Assembly: GCA_963844765.1 (NCBI GenBank)
Contig: CAWJPN010000001.1
Location: 218,565 to 282,564 of the forward strand
Reading direction: 5' to 3'
Source: an uncultured Solirubrobacterales bacterium
GTDB taxonomy: Bacteria; Actinomycetota; Thermoleophilia; Solirubrobacterales; Solirubrobacteraceae
Length of the DNA: 64,000 nucleotides
Made by a program: the position numbers and the translations under genes. The notes below the pieces were generated by a model. It was not told the DNA's origin. It saw only the letters and a program-made list of their open reading frames with translations, and searched no databases. Below are positions 13,035-42,205 of the stretch, in pieces. Each line of letters begins with the position of its first letter. The stretch's first letter is position 1.

Positions 13035-13079
13035 CGCGCCCGGCGCGATTCGAACGCGCGACCTCTCGCTCCGGAGGCG
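13035..13079 (-). repeat. attR of element A: displaced 3' half of tRNA-Arg(CCG)
   Basis: 13035-13076 identical (42 bp) to 26239-26280; 22-bp match to the intact tRNA at 42156-42177; no 5' half. Confidence 0.92.
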
Positions 13080-13187
13080 GACGAGGCGAACGGGCGGAAT
13101 CCCGCACCAGCACTGGGATTCCGCCCGTTTTGACACCCAGGATGGCACCCCCAAAACACGGGATTTGCGGGCGATTACCGGGGGTTC

Positions 13188-13209
13188 TGGCCAACCGTTG
13201 GCCAAAACC
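13188..13209. promoter_or_regulatory. Candidate integrase arm-type sites of element A (TGGCCA repeats)
   Basis: TGGCCAACCGTTGGCCAAAAC ~110 bp inside attR; similar paired repeats at 26135-26157 near the other att. Confidence 0.6.
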
Positions 13210-13250
13210 CGTGGCCCGGACGCGATCGAGCACGCGGCACGCCGCCTCGT

Positions 13251-13607
13251 TCAGTCGCCCCGGGCCCGCCCCTGCTGCTCGTCAACCTCGACGCGGCTCA
13301 GCACTTCTCCCTGCGGCCCGTAGATCGGTATGGAGCGGCCCGAGACGCCATTCGCGCGACCCTTGAGCCTTGGTCGCAGCCAGGACGCCACCCACGCTTT
13401 GACCGCCTCGGTGACTCGCTCGACCTCGGGGTCAGCGAGCTTCTGCAACAGGTAGATCGACAGTACTTCCGCAACGTCCGCGCCCCTTCGCTCGACTGGT
13501 GCTCGGTGCTCCGTGTCGAAGCCGGCTCCCTCCAAGGCATCGAACAGCTCTCTGAATGGCCTGACGGATTCGACGGCGACCATCGGGCGGTGCCCTGCCT
13601 CGTTCAC
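13251..13607 (-). CDS. Hypothetical cargo protein
   Basis: 118-aa ORF with plausible composition. Confidence 0.5.
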   Translation of the reverse strand: MNEAGHRPMVAVESVRPFRELFDALEGAGFDTEHRAPVERRGADVAEVLSIYLLQKLADPEVERVTEAVKAWVASWLRPRLKGRANGVSGRSIPIYGPQGEVLSRVEVDEQQGRARGD

Positions 13608-13697
13608 AGGGGTCGATCATACGCGCTGGCGCGCGCCGGGCGTTTACCGCGGGGCCAGCCAGCACGCGACGTCGGTTCCTGGCGCTGTACTGTGCGC

Positions 13698-13985
13698 CGC
13701 ATGGCAAGCAGCGAGTCGCTTATCGATCAGGCGCTGGCGGCAACAGCAGCAGCAGCACCGGCCACGCTCGACAAGCCCATCGAGGTCACTCCTCAACAGG
13801 CGCTCGTGCTGAGCGTCTACGAGGCGGTGGAGGCCAAGCGCCGGGGCTGGCCCGGCTCCGATGACGCGACCGTCGAGCGCTGTGTCCGAACGGCGAGGCG
13901 TGCGGGCGTAGCCGAGCACGAGATCGAGGCAGCTATTGCGGCCGGTGAGCAGACGCAGGACGAGCCCGACAACAGCGACGATTGA
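13698..13985 (+). CDS. Small hypothetical protein
   Basis: ATG GCA AGC start at about 13701; helical, acidic C-terminus. Confidence 0.4.
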   Translation, partial: RMASSESLIDQALAATAAAAPATLDKPIEVTPQQALVLSVYEAVEAKRRGWPGSDDATVERCVRTARRAGVAEHEIEAAIAAGEQTQDEPDNSDD

Positions 13986-14080
13986 GCCTTGGCGAGACGC
14001 CGTGCCAGCTATCGTGCTTCCTATTGCTCCCCGCCGTCCGGGCCTCACGGCTGCACTGGCGGGGGGAATCTCACCGGAAC

Positions 14081-14410
14081 TCAAGGGGCAGGATCGTCCT
14101 TGCGGACAGCGAAGACTGTGCCGTCATGCGATATGCGCTTAGGATCGGGGAGTCCGCTCCCGCCTAATGATCCGTCAGGTCGTAGATAGCGGTGTATGAG
14201 CGCGACCTTGACGATCCGGCCGCCCCGAGCCTCGATGTACTCGACGATTTGGCTTCGGGTGCCGGCAGCTTGGTGCGCACGCTCGCTGGGCTCCCGGTCG
14301 GTGACGATGATCTCAAGTAGCTCATTCCGAGCGATTCTGGGTAGAATCTCCTTGTTGAAGATCCGGCGCAGCTCGCCCGGGCTGACCCTCTGAACTGGAG
14401 GCATATTCAT
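14081..14410 (-). CDS. Hypothetical protein with HRYLRPDGSLGGSGLPDPK motif (possible RNase-type toxin)
   Basis: Distinctive conserved-looking motif; function is inference. Confidence 0.55.
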   Translation of the reverse strand: MNMPPVQRVSPGELRRIFNKEILPRIARNELLEIIVTDREPSERAHQAAGTRSQIVEYIEARGGRIVKVALIHRYLRPDGSLGGSGLPDPKRISHDGTVFAVRKDDPAP

Positions 14411-14741
14411 GCTTGATCTGGAGATCAGAGAGCGCATTGCGCGCTACACGCGAGGCGACCTCGGGGCACGCGAGCTCGAAGATTGGCTAGAGGGCGTCGT
14501 TTGGGGCCTCGATACTCAGCCGGAGAAAGACCTCGCGGCGACGGCACTCTCGCTCCTCGTTGAGCACGCCAACGGCGACTGGACCGATGCCGAGCTGCGC
14601 GGACGCTTGGGGGCATTGAGTCGTACCTACTGGTTTGACCACGCACCGAGAACCGTGATATCGGGTTCGATAGCGCGCGTCACCCGACTGAACCAGTCGT
14701 CGGGATCGGCTGGAATACGGCCCGCAACGGCATCCGTGTGA
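14409..14741 (+). CDS. Small acidic helical protein (immunity-protein-like)
   Basis: RERIARYTRGDLGARELEDWL pattern. Confidence 0.5.
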   Translation: MLDLEIRERIARYTRGDLGARELEDWLEGVVWGLDTQPEKDLAATALSLLVEHANGDWTDAELRGRLGALSRTYWFDHAPRTVISGSIARVTRLNQSSGSAGIRPATASV

Positions 14742-15111
14742 TGCGGGTGCCATCGAGGAGCACGTCGAACCAATAGAGCCCCTGCTGGTCCGCCTCGAAC
14801 ATGGCGTTGATGACTATGTTGCCGCCGCGCTCCTCGCCCTCGAAGAGCATGTGAGCCTGGAGGATCTGCGACTGCTCGCCCGAGGGCTTCTCAAGACGCA
14901 CCTCCACCGGCAGGTTGGCTCTTGCTTCCCCCGACTTCAGGCAGATAAGGAACATGATCGGCGTGCGGGGGTTCAATGGCTGGCCGTCCTCGCCGGCCAC
15001 AAAGAAGATCCGGTCGATGATCCTGATGGCGCTCATCGCGCCATCCTGCTCCTGGAGCACCTTCTCGCAGATCAAGGCCGCCTGGATGAATGGGCCGCTC
15101 TCGTTGGCCAT
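14680..15111 (-). CDS. DUF6941-like beta-sandwich protein
   Basis: ALICEKVLQEQDG..S.IRIID; GLYWFDVLLDG; RBS GGAGG upstream. Confidence 0.6.
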   Translation of the reverse strand: MANESGPFIQAALICEKVLQEQDGAMSAIRIIDRIFFVAGEDGQPLNPRTPIMFLICLKSGEARANLPVEVRLEKPSGEQSQILQAHMLFEGEERGGNIVINAMFEADQQGLYWFDVLLDGTRITRMPLRAVFQPIPTTGSVG

Positions 15112-15215
15112 CTCGTCGTCCTCCCTGTCGGAATCGCAGGCGATAGCCTACGCGACCGACACCAAAGACCGCCGCGAGGTTAGGCGAGTCCACCAGCGTG
15201 GCCCGCGCGGGCTCG

Positions 15216-40966: not shown

Positions 40967-41451
40967 GCTGGCACCGCCTCACGCGCGGCGAGCTGGGGCG
41001 TGATCTCCTTCAGGTAGGCGCGGGCGGCCTTCTCGTCCACGATCCTGTTCGCGTCGTGCTTCAGGTAGACCTCGACGGTGCCGGGGCGGTCGTTGCGATC
41101 GGTGCGGCCGGTCGCCTCGCGCCACTCTGCGAACTGCCATCCGGGGTCGCTCGTGCGGCTGGGGAACTTGATCTTGAGCAGCGCCGCGACGCTCGGACTC
41201 ACGGGCCGCTTCGCCGACCGCCGGCGGGCCGGCTTCGCCTTCACGGGCGCCGCCGGCGGGTGGGTGATCGTGCGCTTGGATCGACGGGCGGGCTTGACGG
41301 GCGCGCGGTGCTGCGTAGGGACGATCCTCATGCGCTGTCCGCACCCGCAGGTGGGGACGCCGGCGTGCTCGACGTGCCGGGCGGTCATGTGCAGGGTGCA
41401 GCCGCAGGCGCATTGGACCTTGCGGTAGCTGGGGCGGTTGGCGGGGTGCAT
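40963..41451 (-). CDS. Basic protein with N-terminal CxC..CxC zinc ribbon
   Basis: KVQCACGC..TCGCG; Lys/Arg/Pro-rich linker. Confidence 0.6.
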   Translation of the reverse strand: MHPANRPSYRKVQCACGCTLHMTARHVEHAGVPTCGCGQRMRIVPTQHRAPVKPARRSKRTITHPPAAPVKAKPARRRSAKRPVSPSVAALLKIKFPSRTSDPGWQFAEWREATGRTDRNDRPGTVEVYLKHDANRIVDEKAARAYLKEITPQLAAREAVPA

Positions 41452-41489
41452 GGTGGTGGGTTCTCCTATCGGGTTGGGTGGTGGTGTGC

Positions 41490-41714
41490 TCAGCGCTCGG
41501 GTGTCCCGAGCGGCGGGTCTACGGGTTCGCCGTGGGCGTTCAGGTAGGCGGTGGTGGTGCCGTTCTCGCCCCAGGCGATCGTCACGTACAGGTCGGGGTA
41601 CAGGAGGCTCCGTTCGGGCTTGCAGCCGGTCCATGCGAAGGGCGGGTCCTCGGGCAGCTCCCGGACCTGCCTCTGCTCGACGGCACGGGATGAGACGGGG
41701 GTGGTGGTGGTCAT
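41490..41714 (-). CDS. Small hypothetical protein, first gene of the leftward operon
   Basis: Just downstream of a consensus promoter; RBS GGAG. Confidence 0.55.
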   Translation of the reverse strand: MTTTTPVSSRAVEQRQVRELPEDPPFAWTGCKPERSLLYPDLYVTIAWGENGTTTAYLNAHGEPVDPPLGTPER

Positions 41715-41760
41715 GGTGTCTCCGTTCGGGTGGTGGGGTCTTCCTCGACCCTCTCCCTAG

Positions 41761-41789
41761 AGTGTAGAGGACCCGGACAGATTTGTCAA
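41761..41789 (-). promoter_or_regulatory. Near-consensus sigma-70 promoter
   Basis: Minus strand TTGACA-17 bp-TACACT. Confidence 0.85.
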
Positions 41790-41812
41790 GGTCCCGGACA
41801 CATCTTTAGAAC

Positions 41813-41864
41813 CTTGTCCGCCCTGTCACAAGCCGTCGCTTGTCCGCTCTGTCACAAGCCGTCG
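41813..41864. repeat. Tandem repeat, 2 x 26 bp (1 mismatch)
   Basis: CTTGTCCGC[C/T]CTGTCACAAGCCGTCG. Confidence 0.9.
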
Positions 41865-41995
41865 AGGCCCCGCTCGACGGTTGCCAATCAACGCGGGGAG
41901 TGCGCCTGCTCAAAGCAGGCTGGAGCGCGAGGCCGCGGGCTGCCCTCTCGGCTCGGCGTCGTAGCTCCTCGTGCACGAGCGGCGCCCGCAAGGGG

Positions 41996-42054
41996 GGCAG
42001 CGAAACGGCAGCGAAAGGGCGGCGGTTAAGGCAGCGAAAAGGCAGCAGCGCCGG
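41996..42054. promoter_or_regulatory. Candidate arm-type sites of element B near attL
   Basis: GGCAGCGAAA at 41996, 42007 and 42030 plus GGCAGCAGC at 42041. Confidence 0.65.
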
Positions 42055-42132
42055 TTTGGAGGGTGACTGGGGTGGTGTTGCGGTCGCCGGCGGAGCCTCA
42101 GATTTGGCTCTATAGCTGGCGATACGGGGTAA

Positions 42133-42205
42133 TGCGCCCGGCTAGACTCGAACTAGCGACCTCTCGCTCCGGAGGCGAGCGCTCTATCCACTGAGCTACG
42201 GGCGC
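42133..42205 (-). tRNA. tRNA-Arg(CCG); 3' half supplied by element B
   Basis: GCGCCCG acceptor, CTCGC-CTCCGGA-GCGAG anticodon arm, GCTAG-TTCGAGT-CTAGC T arm; no encoded CCA. Confidence 0.95.

What the first reader, a model, noticed from the sequence alone, without database searches (positions are those of the whole stretch)
13035..42205. Two sibling satellite-like elements carry TerS and TerL but no portal, capsid, tail or lysis genes
Seen: both att-bounded elements (13.2 and 15.9 kb) share the order HTH > Zn-domain > helicase > xis-like > Zn finger > conserved HDIPPRWRIPA gene > terS-like > terL, with XRE repressor(s) and integrase at the attL end. With both boundaries visible, I find no ORF resembling a portal, HK97 capsid, tape measure or holin. 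Established: PICIs typically carry only TerS, P4 carries Sid/Psu, and cf-PICIs carry TerS/TerL together with portal and capsid. Inference: this could be a satellite class that brings its own packaging motor and docks it on a helper phage's prohead. The shared architecture argues against two independent prophage decays.
Basis: partly seen in the sequence, partly recalled or inferred. Interest (0 to 1): 0.85.

Follow-up and report, generated by a model that had tools for sequence, protein, structure and literature searches.

The report
Capsid-less mobile elements carrying own terminase
Two small mobile elements sit side by side in a tRNA-Arg gene of a soil actinobacterium; each carries a virus DNA-packaging enzyme but no virus-shell genes, and they belong to a wider, apparently undescribed family that probably spreads inside the shells of other phages.

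Summary
Three copies of the 3' half of tRNA-Arg(CCG) delimit two tandem elements of 13.2 kb (A) and 15.9 kb (B).

- **Shared content:** both carry an HTH regulator, a Zn-ribbon protein, a replicative helicase, an Xis-like gene, RusA, a conserved small "HDIPPRWRIPA" gene, TerS, TerL, XRE repressors and a tyrosine integrase.
- **No shell genes:** Pfam and PHROGs find no capsid, portal, tail or lysis gene. The two largest unknown late ORFs fold as helical or disordered proteins, not as capsid or portal.
as assembled, A's terL and int each carry a one-base homopolymer frameshift. B also holds a degenerate integrase fragment, and its intact integrase is inverted.
- **Relatives:** Thermoleophilia genomes hold the same TerS-TerL layout in exact tRNA-bounded elements of 8.2-14.7 kb. 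In one, TerL is followed directly by the integrase.
- **Selection and mosaicism:** TerL is under purifying selection (dN/dS 0.14) and is exchanged as a cassette between backbones.
- **Exceptions:** one relative carries a capsid gene; another carries a head protease plus a tape-measure-like gene.

Best reading (about 0.6): helper-dependent phage satellites that bring their own terminase. No helper or packaged form was seen. This is a new variant of a known kind.

The parts
13035..13076 (.). att copy 1: displaced 3' half of tRNA-Arg, distal end of element A
   Evidence: 100% identical to 26239-26280. The core occurs 3 times against 0.11 expected.
14680..15111 (-). A: DUF6941 protein, in the accessory region with unknown ORFs 13251-13607(-) and 15216-16061(-)
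   Evidence: Pfam PF22091, E 9.7e-8. No PHROG or PADLOC hit.
16072..16410 (+). A: XRE-type HTH regulator at the head of the long plus-strand operon
   Evidence: HTH_3 / HTH_31. The start codon is an estimate.
16397..16801 (+). A: Zn-ribbon protein shared with B
   Evidence: 42% identical to B 28281-28670. No family hit.
16798..18063 (+). A: AAA_25 (RepA/DnaB-like) replicative helicase
   Evidence: PF13481, E 4.5e-27. PHROG primase/helicase families.
17972..18436 (+). A: Xis-like DNA-binding protein
   Evidence: 44% identical to B's xis-like gene, which hits phrog_66 excisionase.
19230..19604 (+). A: RusA-like Holliday junction resolvase
   Evidence: phrog_244, E 1.1e-17.
19601..19873 (+). A: conserved small 'HDIPPRWRIPA' protein, function unknown
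   Evidence: 68% identical to B 30828-31094. Homologs in L008 and L042.
19833..20477 (+). A: terminase small subunit (P27 family)
   Evidence: PF05119, E 2.1e-8, over the cut-off. phrog_83.
20824..22345 (+). A: terminase large subunit, broken by a 1-base frameshift near 21727 (a GGGG run)
   Evidence: phrog_2, E 4.6e-22, across both pieces. Collinear with B's TerL. Junction read.
22413..23306 (+). A: 297-aa acidic, mostly helical or disordered late protein; not a capsid or portal, possibly scaffold-like
   Evidence: AF2 model, pLDDT 72.7: long helices, a small domain, a disordered stretch and a C-terminal helix. No Foldseek match in BFVD or PDB. 91% homolog follows TerL in L042.
24044..24280 (-). 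A: XRE-family repressor candidate
   Evidence: HTH_31, E 4e-11. PHROG repressor families.
24966..26203 (+). A: tyrosine integrase, broken by a 1-base frameshift near 25513 (a CCCCC run)
   Evidence: phrog_1, E 1.7e-57. Junction read. The intact 412-aa ortholog in L042 is 77-85% identical.
26239..26280 (.). att copy 2: junction between elements A and B
27006..27692 (+). B: DUF2335 membrane protein
   Evidence: PF10097, E 6.9e-11. phrog_3996, E 2.7e-20.
27763..28044 (+). B: XRE-type HTH regulator
   Evidence: HTH_31.
28281..28670 (+). B: Zn-ribbon protein shared with A
28667..30079 (+). B: D5-type replicative helicase (D5_N plus a DUF5906 ATPase; no primase domain)
   Evidence: PF08706, E 3.7e-34. 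phrog_6088, E 3e-141, matching profile positions 323-763 of 772.
30138..30641 (+). B: Xis-like protein
   Evidence: phrog_66, E 9.4e-6.
30828..31094 (+). B: 'HDIPPRWRIPA' protein
31085..31711 (+). B: terminase small subunit
   Evidence: Weak Terminase_4, E 0.0018. Homologous to A's TerS. Its family is present next to TerL in 17 loci.
31711..32115 (+). B: RusA resolvase
   Evidence: PF05866, E 5e-9; phrog_140, E 1.8e-13.
32183..33604 (+). B: intact terminase large subunit (473 aa; ATPase plus nuclease domains)
   Evidence: phrog_2, E 1.3e-28. PDB TerL nuclease and gp17 ATPase hits. Walker A/B and nuclease Asp residues invariant. dN/dS 0.14 against L008. GGAGG lies upstream of the GTG at 32183.
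33659..34051 (+). B: 130-aa protein conserved directly after TerL in B-type elements
   Evidence: Homologs follow TerL in L006, L007 and L008. Only a weak DUF5805 hit.
34041..34595 (+). B: degenerate integrase catalytic-domain fragment
   Evidence: PF00589, E 8.5e-10. The HxLR and LGH motifs read DALR and LGV in the translation.
35139..36552 (-). B: two XRE-family repressor genes (35139-35507 and 36271-36552) flanking a small plus-strand ORF
   Evidence: HTH_31 / HTH_3, E 1e-23 to 1e-24, two stretches. Homologous to A's XRE.
37121..37870 (+). B: 249-aa helical protein with a 'PDGSYPI...HI..RA..LG' domain and three LGIPT repeats; not a capsid or portal
   Evidence: AF2 model all-helical then disordered, pLDDT 72. 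Foldseek gives only small-domain matches to uncharacterised phage proteins. Homolog P0136 carries the Mu-like head protease domain PF10123. Follows TerL-130 directly in L008.
37888..38304 (+). B: 138-aa conserved partner of the previous gene
   Evidence: Homologs in L007 and L008. No family or PDB hit.
38593..39825 (-). B: intact tyrosine integrase
   Evidence: phrog_1, E 1.1e-60; PF00589, E 6e-23.
39825..40966 (-). B: XRE regulator (39825-40310) and ASCH-domain protein (40580-40966), same strand as int
   Evidence: HTH_3, E 1.9e-13; phrog_3193, E 3.9e-43. The same genes occur in L007.
42132..42206 (-). tRNA-Arg(CCG), the integration target; its 3' half (42133-42174) is att copy 3
   Evidence: ARAGORN.

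Best explanation
A and B are two tandem insertions at tRNA-Arg(CCG). They belong to a family of small (about 8-16 kb) integrative elements of Thermoleophilia (Solirubrobacterales and Gaiellales).

**What each element carries**
- an integration and excision set (tyrosine integrase, Xis-like protein);
- XRE-type repressors;
- its own replication module (helicase, with or without a primase; RusA);
- a complete terminase (TerS plus TerL);
- no capsid, portal, tail or lysis genes.

**Most likely mechanism (inferred, not shown)**
1. The element is a helper-dependent phage satellite.
2. On infection by, or induction of, a helper tailed phage, the XRE repression is lifted.
3. The element excises by Int/Xis at the tRNA att site and replicates with its own helicase.
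4. Its own TerS recognises the element's DNA.
5. Its own TerL docks on the helper's portal and pumps element concatemers into helper procapsids.
6. The acidic helical proteins encoded after terL (22413-23306 in A; 37121-37870 in B) may act as scaffold-like assembly factors.

**Shown here**
- the att boundaries and the gene content;
- the absence of detectable morphogenesis genes;
- recurrence of the layout in other genomes;
- purifying selection on TerL and cassette-like exchange of terS-terL.

**State of the two copies**
- B looks intact.
- A, the older and tRNA-distal insertion, has frameshifts in terL and int as assembled and is probably inactive.
For: **1. Boundaries.** Exact att repeats derive from the tRNA 3' half.

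**2. Gene content.** Integrase, Xis, XRE, helicase, RusA, TerS and TerL are present, with no structural or lysis family hit in Pfam or PHROGs.

**3. TerL is a genuine, constrained terminase.**
- phrog_2, E 1e-28.
- PDB hits to the TerL nuclease domain and the T4 gp17 ATPase domain.
- Walker A/B and nuclease aspartates are invariant across 21 sequences.
- dN/dS is 0.14 against L008.
- Hundreds of homologs exist at 52-58% identity.

**4. The largest unknown late ORFs are not capsid or portal**.

**5. Relatives have the same capsid-less layout.**
- L042, at the same chromosomal site in a related genome, holds one A-like element with an intact 511-aa TerL and an intact 412-aa Int.
- In L038-41, TerS-TerL-Int is followed directly by host genes.
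- L014, L022, L010 and L016 have exact 43-53-nt tRNA att repeats spaced 10,501, 8,203, 8,924 and 14,746 nt, at four different tRNAs.

**6. Capsid and portal are absent near TerL elsewhere.**
- The capsid family phrog_544 is absent from 18 of 19 genomes carrying these elements.
- HK97 capsid is present in 3 of 18 and portal in 1 of 18; for L010's genome the hits are on other contigs, for the other two co-location was not checked.

**7. Mosaicism.**
- A against L042: flanking genes are 80-98% identical, but TerS is 46% and TerL 34-47%.
- B against L008: TerL is 95% identical, but its neighbours are 35-69%.
- This pattern points to active recombination among live elements rather than decay in place.

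**8. No other terminase in this genome.** The only terminases in the 3.7-Mb assembly are those of A and B.
Against: - No helper was identified. The genome (90.7% complete) has no HK97 capsid, no portal and no other terminase.
- There is no evidence of excision or encapsidation. IMG/VR holds only TerLs at 27% identity.
- A's terL and int are frameshifted, and B holds a dead integrase fragment.
- Several copies in other genomes are truncated or fragmented: L026-L029, G099 and G376.
- The family is rare, found in 6 of 401 genomes of the class.
- Two relatives carry head genes: a major head protein in L015, and a head protease plus a tape-measure-like gene in L016. Descent from prophages or capsid-forming satellites is therefore likely, and some copies may be relics.
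- Many small ORFs remain unannotated, and only two proteins could be folded.
- A TerL working on a foreign portal has no experimental precedent known to me.
Confidence: 0.6

Rival explanations
1. These are decaying remnants of temperate phages, or of capsid-forming satellites. Terminase, replication and integration genes survive by chance, and the head and tail genes have been deleted.
For: - A's terL and int are frameshifted.
- B has a degenerate integrase fragment.
- TerL copies are truncated or fragmented in L026-L029, G099 and G376.
- L015 keeps a major head protein, and L016 keeps a head protease plus a tape-measure-like gene.
- Krupovic et al. read the TerS+TerL-only archaeal element NitKor-E1 as a likely relic (PMC6563490).
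Against: - Independent decay would not repeatedly stop at the same gene set, with exact att repeats, at 8-15 kb, in at least 6 genomes and at different tRNAs.
- TerL is under purifying selection (dN/dS 0.14-0.21), with catalytic residues invariant.
- Int, Xis and replication genes are intact in B, L042, L014, L022 and L038.
- The terS-terL cassette is exchanged between otherwise near-identical backbones.
Confidence: 0.13
2. These are integrative, plasmid-like elements in which the terminase pair has been co-opted for a job other than filling capsids. Candidates are resolving or processing the element's own replication concatemers, or acting as an anti-phage nuclease or packaging decoy that benefits the host.
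For: - No helper phage or capsid source exists in this genome.
- No close relatives appear in the viral-contig collection.
- The elements have a full autonomous replication and integration set.
- Another agent of this scan read stand-alone TerS-TerL pairs in Poribacteria as retained tools (unchecked note e1-1158439).
Against: - No defence-system family was hit in the accessory genes.
- TerL keeps both the ATPase motor and the nuclease motifs of packaging enzymes.
- TerS-TerL sit at the end of a late operon, followed by proteins related to phage head-assembly contexts. The B338 homolog P0136 has a Mu-type head protease domain, and L016 has a head protease.
- Satellites also interfere with helpers, so this reading overlaps with the main one.
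Confidence: 0.17
3. These are complete but very small viruses whose capsid, portal and tail proteins are too divergent to recognise.
For: Many ORFs have no family hit, and ORFs of about 250-340 aa often follow TerL in relatives.
Against: - L038-41 has nothing between TerL and Int.
- The 8.2-kb L022 element has only three unassigned ORFs over 200 aa. One of them is a DNA-binding protein.
- The A and B candidates fold as helical or disordered proteins, not as an HK97 or portal fold.
- Too little coding space remains for a portal, capsid, tail and lysis genes.
Confidence: 0.04

Closest known systems
PICIs / SaPIs (phage-inducible chromosomal islands)
   Same: - Size of about 8-16 kb, with site-specific integration by a tyrosine integrase and exact att repeats.
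- XRE-type repressor and Xis.
- Own primase/helicase-type replication module.
- Own TerS.
- No capsid, tail or lysis genes.
- Tandem occupancy of one att site.
   Different: - PICIs use the helper's TerL. They carry TerS alone or a redirecting factor such as Rpp.
- Here a full TerL is encoded and conserved.
- The host lineage (Thermoleophilia) has no described satellites.
- Helper induction is untested.
Capsid-forming PICIs (cf-PICIs; Alqurainy et al., bioRxiv 10.1101/2022.09.08.507074; de Sousa et al. 2023, PMC10085698)
   Same: They are the only established satellites that encode TerL together with TerS. They have the same integrase, regulator and primase backbone.
   Different: - cf-PICIs are defined by also carrying capsid, protease, portal, head-tail adaptor and connector genes, which are absent from A and B.
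- Only distant family members (L015, L016) keep one or two head genes.
NitKor-E1, cryptic integrated element of Ca. Nitrosopumilus koreensis (Krupovic et al. 2019, PMC6563490)
   Same: An integrated element whose only Caudovirales-like genes are an adjacent TerS and TerL, plus a tyrosine integrase. The authors note that terminase had not been seen in non-viral mobile elements.
   Different: - It is archaeal and a single example, and was interpreted as a probable relic.
- Here there is a recurrent bacterial family with att-bounded copies, selection on TerL, and replication modules.
EPIPs of Mycolicibacterium aichiense (Qian et al. 2025 preprint, PMC12822802)
   Same: About 11-kb actinobacterial satellites with an integrase, TerS and a partial set of virion genes. 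The tape-measure gene parallels relative L016.
   Different: - EPIPs are annotated with a major capsid protein, scaffold, adaptor and tape measure, with a serine integrase and no TerL.
- A and B have TerL and none of those genes.

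Membership tests
Phage terminase large subunit (TerL) | N-terminal ASCE ATPase with Walker A and Walker B motifs | tested here: met
   - GRRSGKT and a DE motif are invariant in the 21-sequence alignment.
- The profile hits the T4 gp17 ATPase domain in PDB.
- phrog_2, E 1.3e-28.
- A's copy reads GRRSFKT and is frameshifted.
Phage terminase large subunit (TerL) | C-terminal RNase-H-like nuclease domain with conserved acidic residues | tested here: met
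   - The profile hits the TerL nuclease domains of Thermus phages (5tge, 5m1f), E 1e-6.
- D288, D355 and D436 are invariant.
PICI / SaPI-type satellite | Small (under about 20 kb) att-bounded island with an integrase, a repressor and a replication module, and no structural or lysis genes | tested here: met
PICI / SaPI-type satellite | Relies on the helper's TerL (carries TerS or a redirecting factor only) | tested here: not met
   Both elements encode a full TerL.
PICI / SaPI-type satellite | De-repression, excision and packaging induced by a helper phage | not testable with these tools
   No helper was found in the genome.
Capsid-forming PICI | Own major capsid protein, prohead protease and portal | tested here: not met
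   - No such Pfam or PHROG hit in A or B.
- The folded late ORFs are not capsid or portal.
- No PF05065, PF04860 or phrog_544 anywhere in the genome.
Capsid-forming PICI | Own TerS plus TerL | tested here: met
P4-like satellite | Sid/Psu/Delta capsid-size and transactivation genes, and an alpha primase | tested here: not met
   No such family appears among the Pfam or PHROG hits. SatelliteFinder itself was not available.
Intact temperate tailed prophage | Capsid, portal, tail and lysis modules | tested here: not met
   The 13.2- and 15.9-kb elements are mostly filled by regulation, replication, packaging and integration genes.
Tyrosine-recombinase integrative element at a tRNA | Tyrosine integrase plus a direct repeat of the tRNA 3' half at both ends | tested here: met
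   phrog_1, E 1e-57 to 1e-60. att repeats.

The most novel reading that the evidence does not exclude
Thermoleophilia, and by the unchecked notes of this scan other bacteria and archaea too, harbour a large undescribed class of 'bring-your-own-terminase' satellites.

- They are integrative elements of 8-16 kb whose only conserved virus-derived module is TerS plus TerL.
- Their TerL motor docks on the portal of an unrelated helper phage.
- The terS-terL cassette is swapped between backbones to retarget helpers.
- The variable helical proteins after terL act as scaffold-like factors that adapt helper procapsids.
Probability: 0.45. Interest if true: 0.82.

Novelty: new variant of a known kind. 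Interest (0 to 1): 0.66.

Why it matters
All well-studied satellites either reuse the helper's large terminase or bring a whole head. In cf-PICIs that means capsid, portal and TerL together.

A satellite that brings only the motor would mean that TerL-portal docking is promiscuous enough to be parasitised. It would add a new hijacking strategy and explain the 'orphan' terminase genes that annotation pipelines routinely label as prophage remnants.

It would also be the first handle on phage-satellite biology in Thermoleophilia. These are abundant soil actinobacteria; I found no paper describing phages or satellites for them, and no phage close to this TerL is in the collections searched.

The exchangeable terS-terL cassette suggests a directly testable determinant of helper specificity.

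Tried and rejected
- **Capsid or portal among late ORFs: rejected.** AF2 plus Foldseek was run on 22413-23306 and 37121-37870. PDB sequence searches were run on these and on 33659 and 37888.
- **Homology between A's and B's post-terL proteins: rejected.** hhalign gave a probability of 2%. Only a 'G-[IV]-P-x-x-D' motif is shared.
- **B as two fused elements: considered unlikely.**
  - No extra att copy was found, allowing up to 3 mismatches.
  - B's right-hand genes (ASCH, XRE3, the 338 and 37888 homologs, Int) occur together in the single element L007.
  - A 19-nt motif links B's interior to its right end.
- **Resident helper prophage: none found.** PF05065, PF04860, PF03354, PF03237, PF04466 and the TerL protein itself were searched in the own genome.
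- **Defence cargo in the accessory regions: none found** in PADLOC.
- **Circular contigs among short metagenome contigs carrying the TerL: none.** No terminal overlaps were seen.
- **Close relatives among viral contigs (IMG/VR) or cultured phages: none.**
  - The best phage TerLs are 24-30% identical, from Thermus, Meiothermus and Synechococcus phages.
- **A's palindromic TGGCCA 'arm site':** the pattern search was not above chance.
- **Limit of the bulk scan.** The scan of 118 downstream ORFs lists only the 25 commonest of 103 PHROG families. Twenty of the larger ORFs were therefore re-scanned singly, which is how the L015 capsid and the L016 protease were found.

Full report
**1. The observation**

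ARAGORN finds one tRNA in the window, tRNA-Arg(CCG) at 42132-42206 on the minus strand. Its 3' half, from the anticodon loop to the 3' end (42133-42174), recurs at 26239-26280 and 13035-13076. The two displaced copies are identical to each other and 86% identical to the tRNA copy. The shared 19-nt core occurs exactly three times, against 0.11 expected by chance.

The differences lie in the T arm and are compensatory. The functional tRNA is therefore a chimera whose 3' half was supplied by the last element to integrate. Element A (13035-26280, spacing 13,204 nt) is thus the older, distal insertion. Element B (26239-42174, spacing 15,894 nt) is the younger one next to the tRNA.

**2. Gene content**

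The genome has about 70% G+C, so I picked ORFs by codon-position G+C. I then scanned about 55 of them against Pfam and PHROGs.

Element A contains:
- a minus-strand accessory block: DUF6941 and two unknown ORFs;
- a long plus-strand operon: HTH, Zn-ribbon protein, AAA_25 helicase, Xis-like protein, small Zn-finger ORFs, RusA, the 'HDIPPRWRIPA' protein, TerS (P27 family, over the Pfam cut-off), a Zn protein, TerL, and a 297-aa acidic protein;
- a divergent XRE repressor and a tyrosine integrase abutting the att site.

Element B contains:
- a DUF2335 membrane protein, HTH, the same Zn-ribbon protein, a D5-type helicase, Xis, a Zn finger, HDIPP, TerS, RusA, and TerL (473 aa from the GTG at 32183, which has a GGAGG upstream);
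- a 130-aa protein, a degenerate integrase fragment, and two XRE genes;
- a 249-aa protein with LGIPT repeats and a 138-aa protein;
- on the minus strand, an intact integrase, an XRE gene and an ASCH-domain gene.

No capsid, portal, protease, tail, tape-measure, holin or endolysin family was hit.

A-versus-B protein comparison confirms homology of the Zn-ribbon protein (42%), Xis (44%), HDIPP (68%), TerS (31%), TerL (34%), XRE (45-51%) and Int (44-56%). The helicases are unrelated to each other.

**3.

A's terL and int are each split between two frames. The junctions are single-base changes in homopolymer runs. At terL, GGGG should be GGG. At int, CCCCC should be CCCCCC.

I noticed no split host genes in the window or in B, though this was not tested systematically. 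If errors were spread uniformly, two falling inside A alone would have a probability of about 0.04. I therefore lean towards real inactivating mutations.

**4. TerL is a real, constrained terminase**

- B's TerL scores E 1.3e-28 on phrog_2.
- A profile of 21 family members hits the TerL nuclease domains of Thermus phages and the ATPase domain of T4 gp17 in PDB.
- Walker A, Walker B and three nuclease aspartates are invariant.
- The protein database holds 387 relatives, and the 100 or so listed below the closest hits are 52-58% identical. The few that carry a source name come from Actinobacteria or Gaiellaceae MAGs.
- dN/dS is 0.14 against the 95%-identical copy in L008 and 0.21 against L007.
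- The nearest cultured-phage TerLs are only 24-30% identical. The viral-contig collection holds nothing closer than 27%.

**5. The refutation tests**

The 297-aa protein of A was modelled with a 36-sequence alignment. It gives two long N-terminal helices, a small confident domain, a long disordered stretch and a C-terminal helix (pLDDT 72.7). It has no significant Foldseek match in BFVD or PDB. Its central domain is widespread and is fused in some proteins to LigT-like phosphoesterases.

The 249-aa protein of B is all-helical and then disordered. It matches only small domains of uncharacterised phage proteins. One homolog, P0136, joins the same 'PDGSYPI...HI..RA..LG' domain to a Mu-type head protease domain.

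Neither protein is a capsid or a portal. ORF 33659 is only 130 aa. The two late proteins are not detectably homologous to each other.

**6. Relatives**

I obtained context for about 30 loci. After ORF calling and clustering, a TerS-TerL pair was present in 17 of them.

Key cases:
- **L042** is the same chromosomal site, with the pyr operon flank, in a related genome. It carries a single A-like element with Prim-Pol, D5 helicase, Xis, RusA (93%), HDIPP, TerS, an intact 511-aa TerL, the 297-aa protein (91%) and an intact 412-aa integrase.
- **L008** has a TerL 95% identical to B's. Its order is Xis-TerS-RusA-HDIPP-TerL-130-'338'-'37888'.
- **L038-41** have TerS-TerL, then a 430-bp gap, the integrase, and then host arginine-deiminase genes.
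- **Four relatives are bounded by exact repeats of a tRNA 3' half**:
  - L014: tRNA-Gly, 10,501 nt;
  - L022: tRNA-Cys, 8,203 nt;
  - L010: tRNA-Leu, 8,924 nt;
  - L016: tRNA-Arg(TCG), 14,746 nt.

A bulk scan of 118 ORFs downstream of TerL and single scans of the 20 largest found head genes in only two loci. L016 has a head-maturation protease and a tape-measure-like protein. L015 has a 291-aa major head protein (phrog_544, E 2e-8).

That capsid family is absent from the other 18 genomes, including this one. HK97 capsid occurs in 3 of 18 and portal in 1 of 18 of the relatives' genomes; for L010's genome the hits are on other contigs, for the other two co-location with the TerL locus was not checked.

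In this genome the only terminases are those of A and B, and there is no HK97 capsid or portal.

**7. Mosaicism**

Between A and L042, the genes flanking the packaging module are 80-98% identical. TerS is only 46% identical and TerL 34-47%. Between B and L008 the pattern is reversed: TerL is 95% identical (dS 0.32), while its neighbours are 35-69% identical (dS 0.56-0.83).

The terminase genes are therefore exchanged as a module among live elements. This is hard to reconcile with passive decay.

**8. Interpretation**

The descriptive conclusion is well supported. This is a family of small tRNA-integrating elements with their own replication genes and their own complete terminase, but no shell genes.

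The mechanism is inferred from the gene set and from analogy with PICIs. It consists of helper-dependent packaging by the element's TerS and TerL into a helper's procapsids. I put it at about 0.6.

The rivals are:
- relics of prophages or capsid-forming satellites (0.13);
- terminase co-opted for a non-packaging role on an integrative, plasmid-like element (0.17);
- a cryptic complete virus (0.04).

The family is sporadic, found in 6 of 401 genomes of the class, and several copies are truncated. This fits a mobile element with turnover, but it also tempers the claim.

**9. Comparison with the literature**

- Among the four families that SatelliteFinder detects, cf-PICIs are set apart from PICIs by terL and also carry capsid and head-tail adaptor/connector genes (PMC10085698; portal from my own knowledge).
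- EPIPs of Mycolicibacterium have TerS, a major capsid protein and a tape measure, but no TerL (PMC12822802).
- The only printed precedent I found for a TerS+TerL-only integrated element is the archaeal NitKor-E1. Its authors called its terminase 'enigmatic' and a likely relic (PMC6563490).
- Other agents of this scan have noted similar capsid-less terminase elements in Acidimicrobiales and in archaea. I did not test those notes and treat them as leads only.

**10. Verdict**

- Novelty: a new variant of a known kind, namely a phage satellite with its own TerS and TerL and no head genes.
- Interest: 0.66.

Noticed in passing
window 16324-16428 and 27958-28062: A 105-nt DNA stretch is 86% identical between A and B. 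It spans the end of the HTH gene and the start of the Zn-ribbon gene, although the upstream HTH genes are not alignable at DNA level (D3). It may be a conserved regulatory or RNA element, or a recombination joint.
   Followed up: no
window 30589-30607 and 42036-42054 (weaker copy at 26372-26413): A 19-nt exact repeat, GAAAAGGCAGCAGCGCCGG, links the inside of B's xis-like gene to the region just inside B's tRNA-proximal att. Chance expectation is 0.05. It may be an Int/Xis arm-type site.
   Followed up: partly
window 37591-37800: The 249-aa protein of B has three tandem 'LGIPT...GP..LRE(A/S)' repeats (D8/D19; alignment). A's unrelated 297-aa protein has G-V-P-M/T motifs, and hhalign aligns only this motif.
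   Followed up: partly
window 22413-23306; proteins P0160, P0189, P0201: The confident central domain of A's late protein (residues about 110-225) is a widespread uncharacterised domain. In other proteins it sits N-terminal to LigT-type 2',5'-RNA-ligase/phosphoesterase domains.
   Followed up: partly
L015 12429-13304: One family member, with a TerL 51% identical to B's, carries a 291-aa major head protein (phrog_544, E 2e-8). It lies 0.9 kb after TerL with no portal-sized ORF between them. This is a capsid-carrying variant of the family.
   Followed up: partly
L016 12128-13162 and 14306-17401: A 14.7-kb element bounded by tRNA-Arg(TCG) repeats carries TerS and TerL, a head-maturation protease (phrog_3894, E 1.6e-27) and a 1031-aa tape-measure-like protein, but no recognised capsid or portal. 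It is reminiscent of the tape-measure-carrying EPIP satellites.
   Followed up: partly
window 11000-13035: The 2 kb to the left of element A has lower G+C (0.645 against about 0.70) and only short ORFs. It may be a still older island remnant. No further att copy was found.
   Followed up: no
window 34041-34956: The degenerate integrase fragment overlaps a second frame (34192-34956). The C-terminus of that frame, a CxxC...C Zn motif, is homologous to the C-terminal part of a 212-aa ORF (5801-6439) in L008 that lies next after the '37888' homolog, i.e. four genes downstream of TerL. The gene structure here is unresolved.
   Followed up: no
proteins P0068, P0076, P0082, P0099: Some TerL homologs are about 700 aa rather than about 480 aa. 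They may be TerS-TerL fusions or gene-calling read-through. This was not examined.
   Followed up: no
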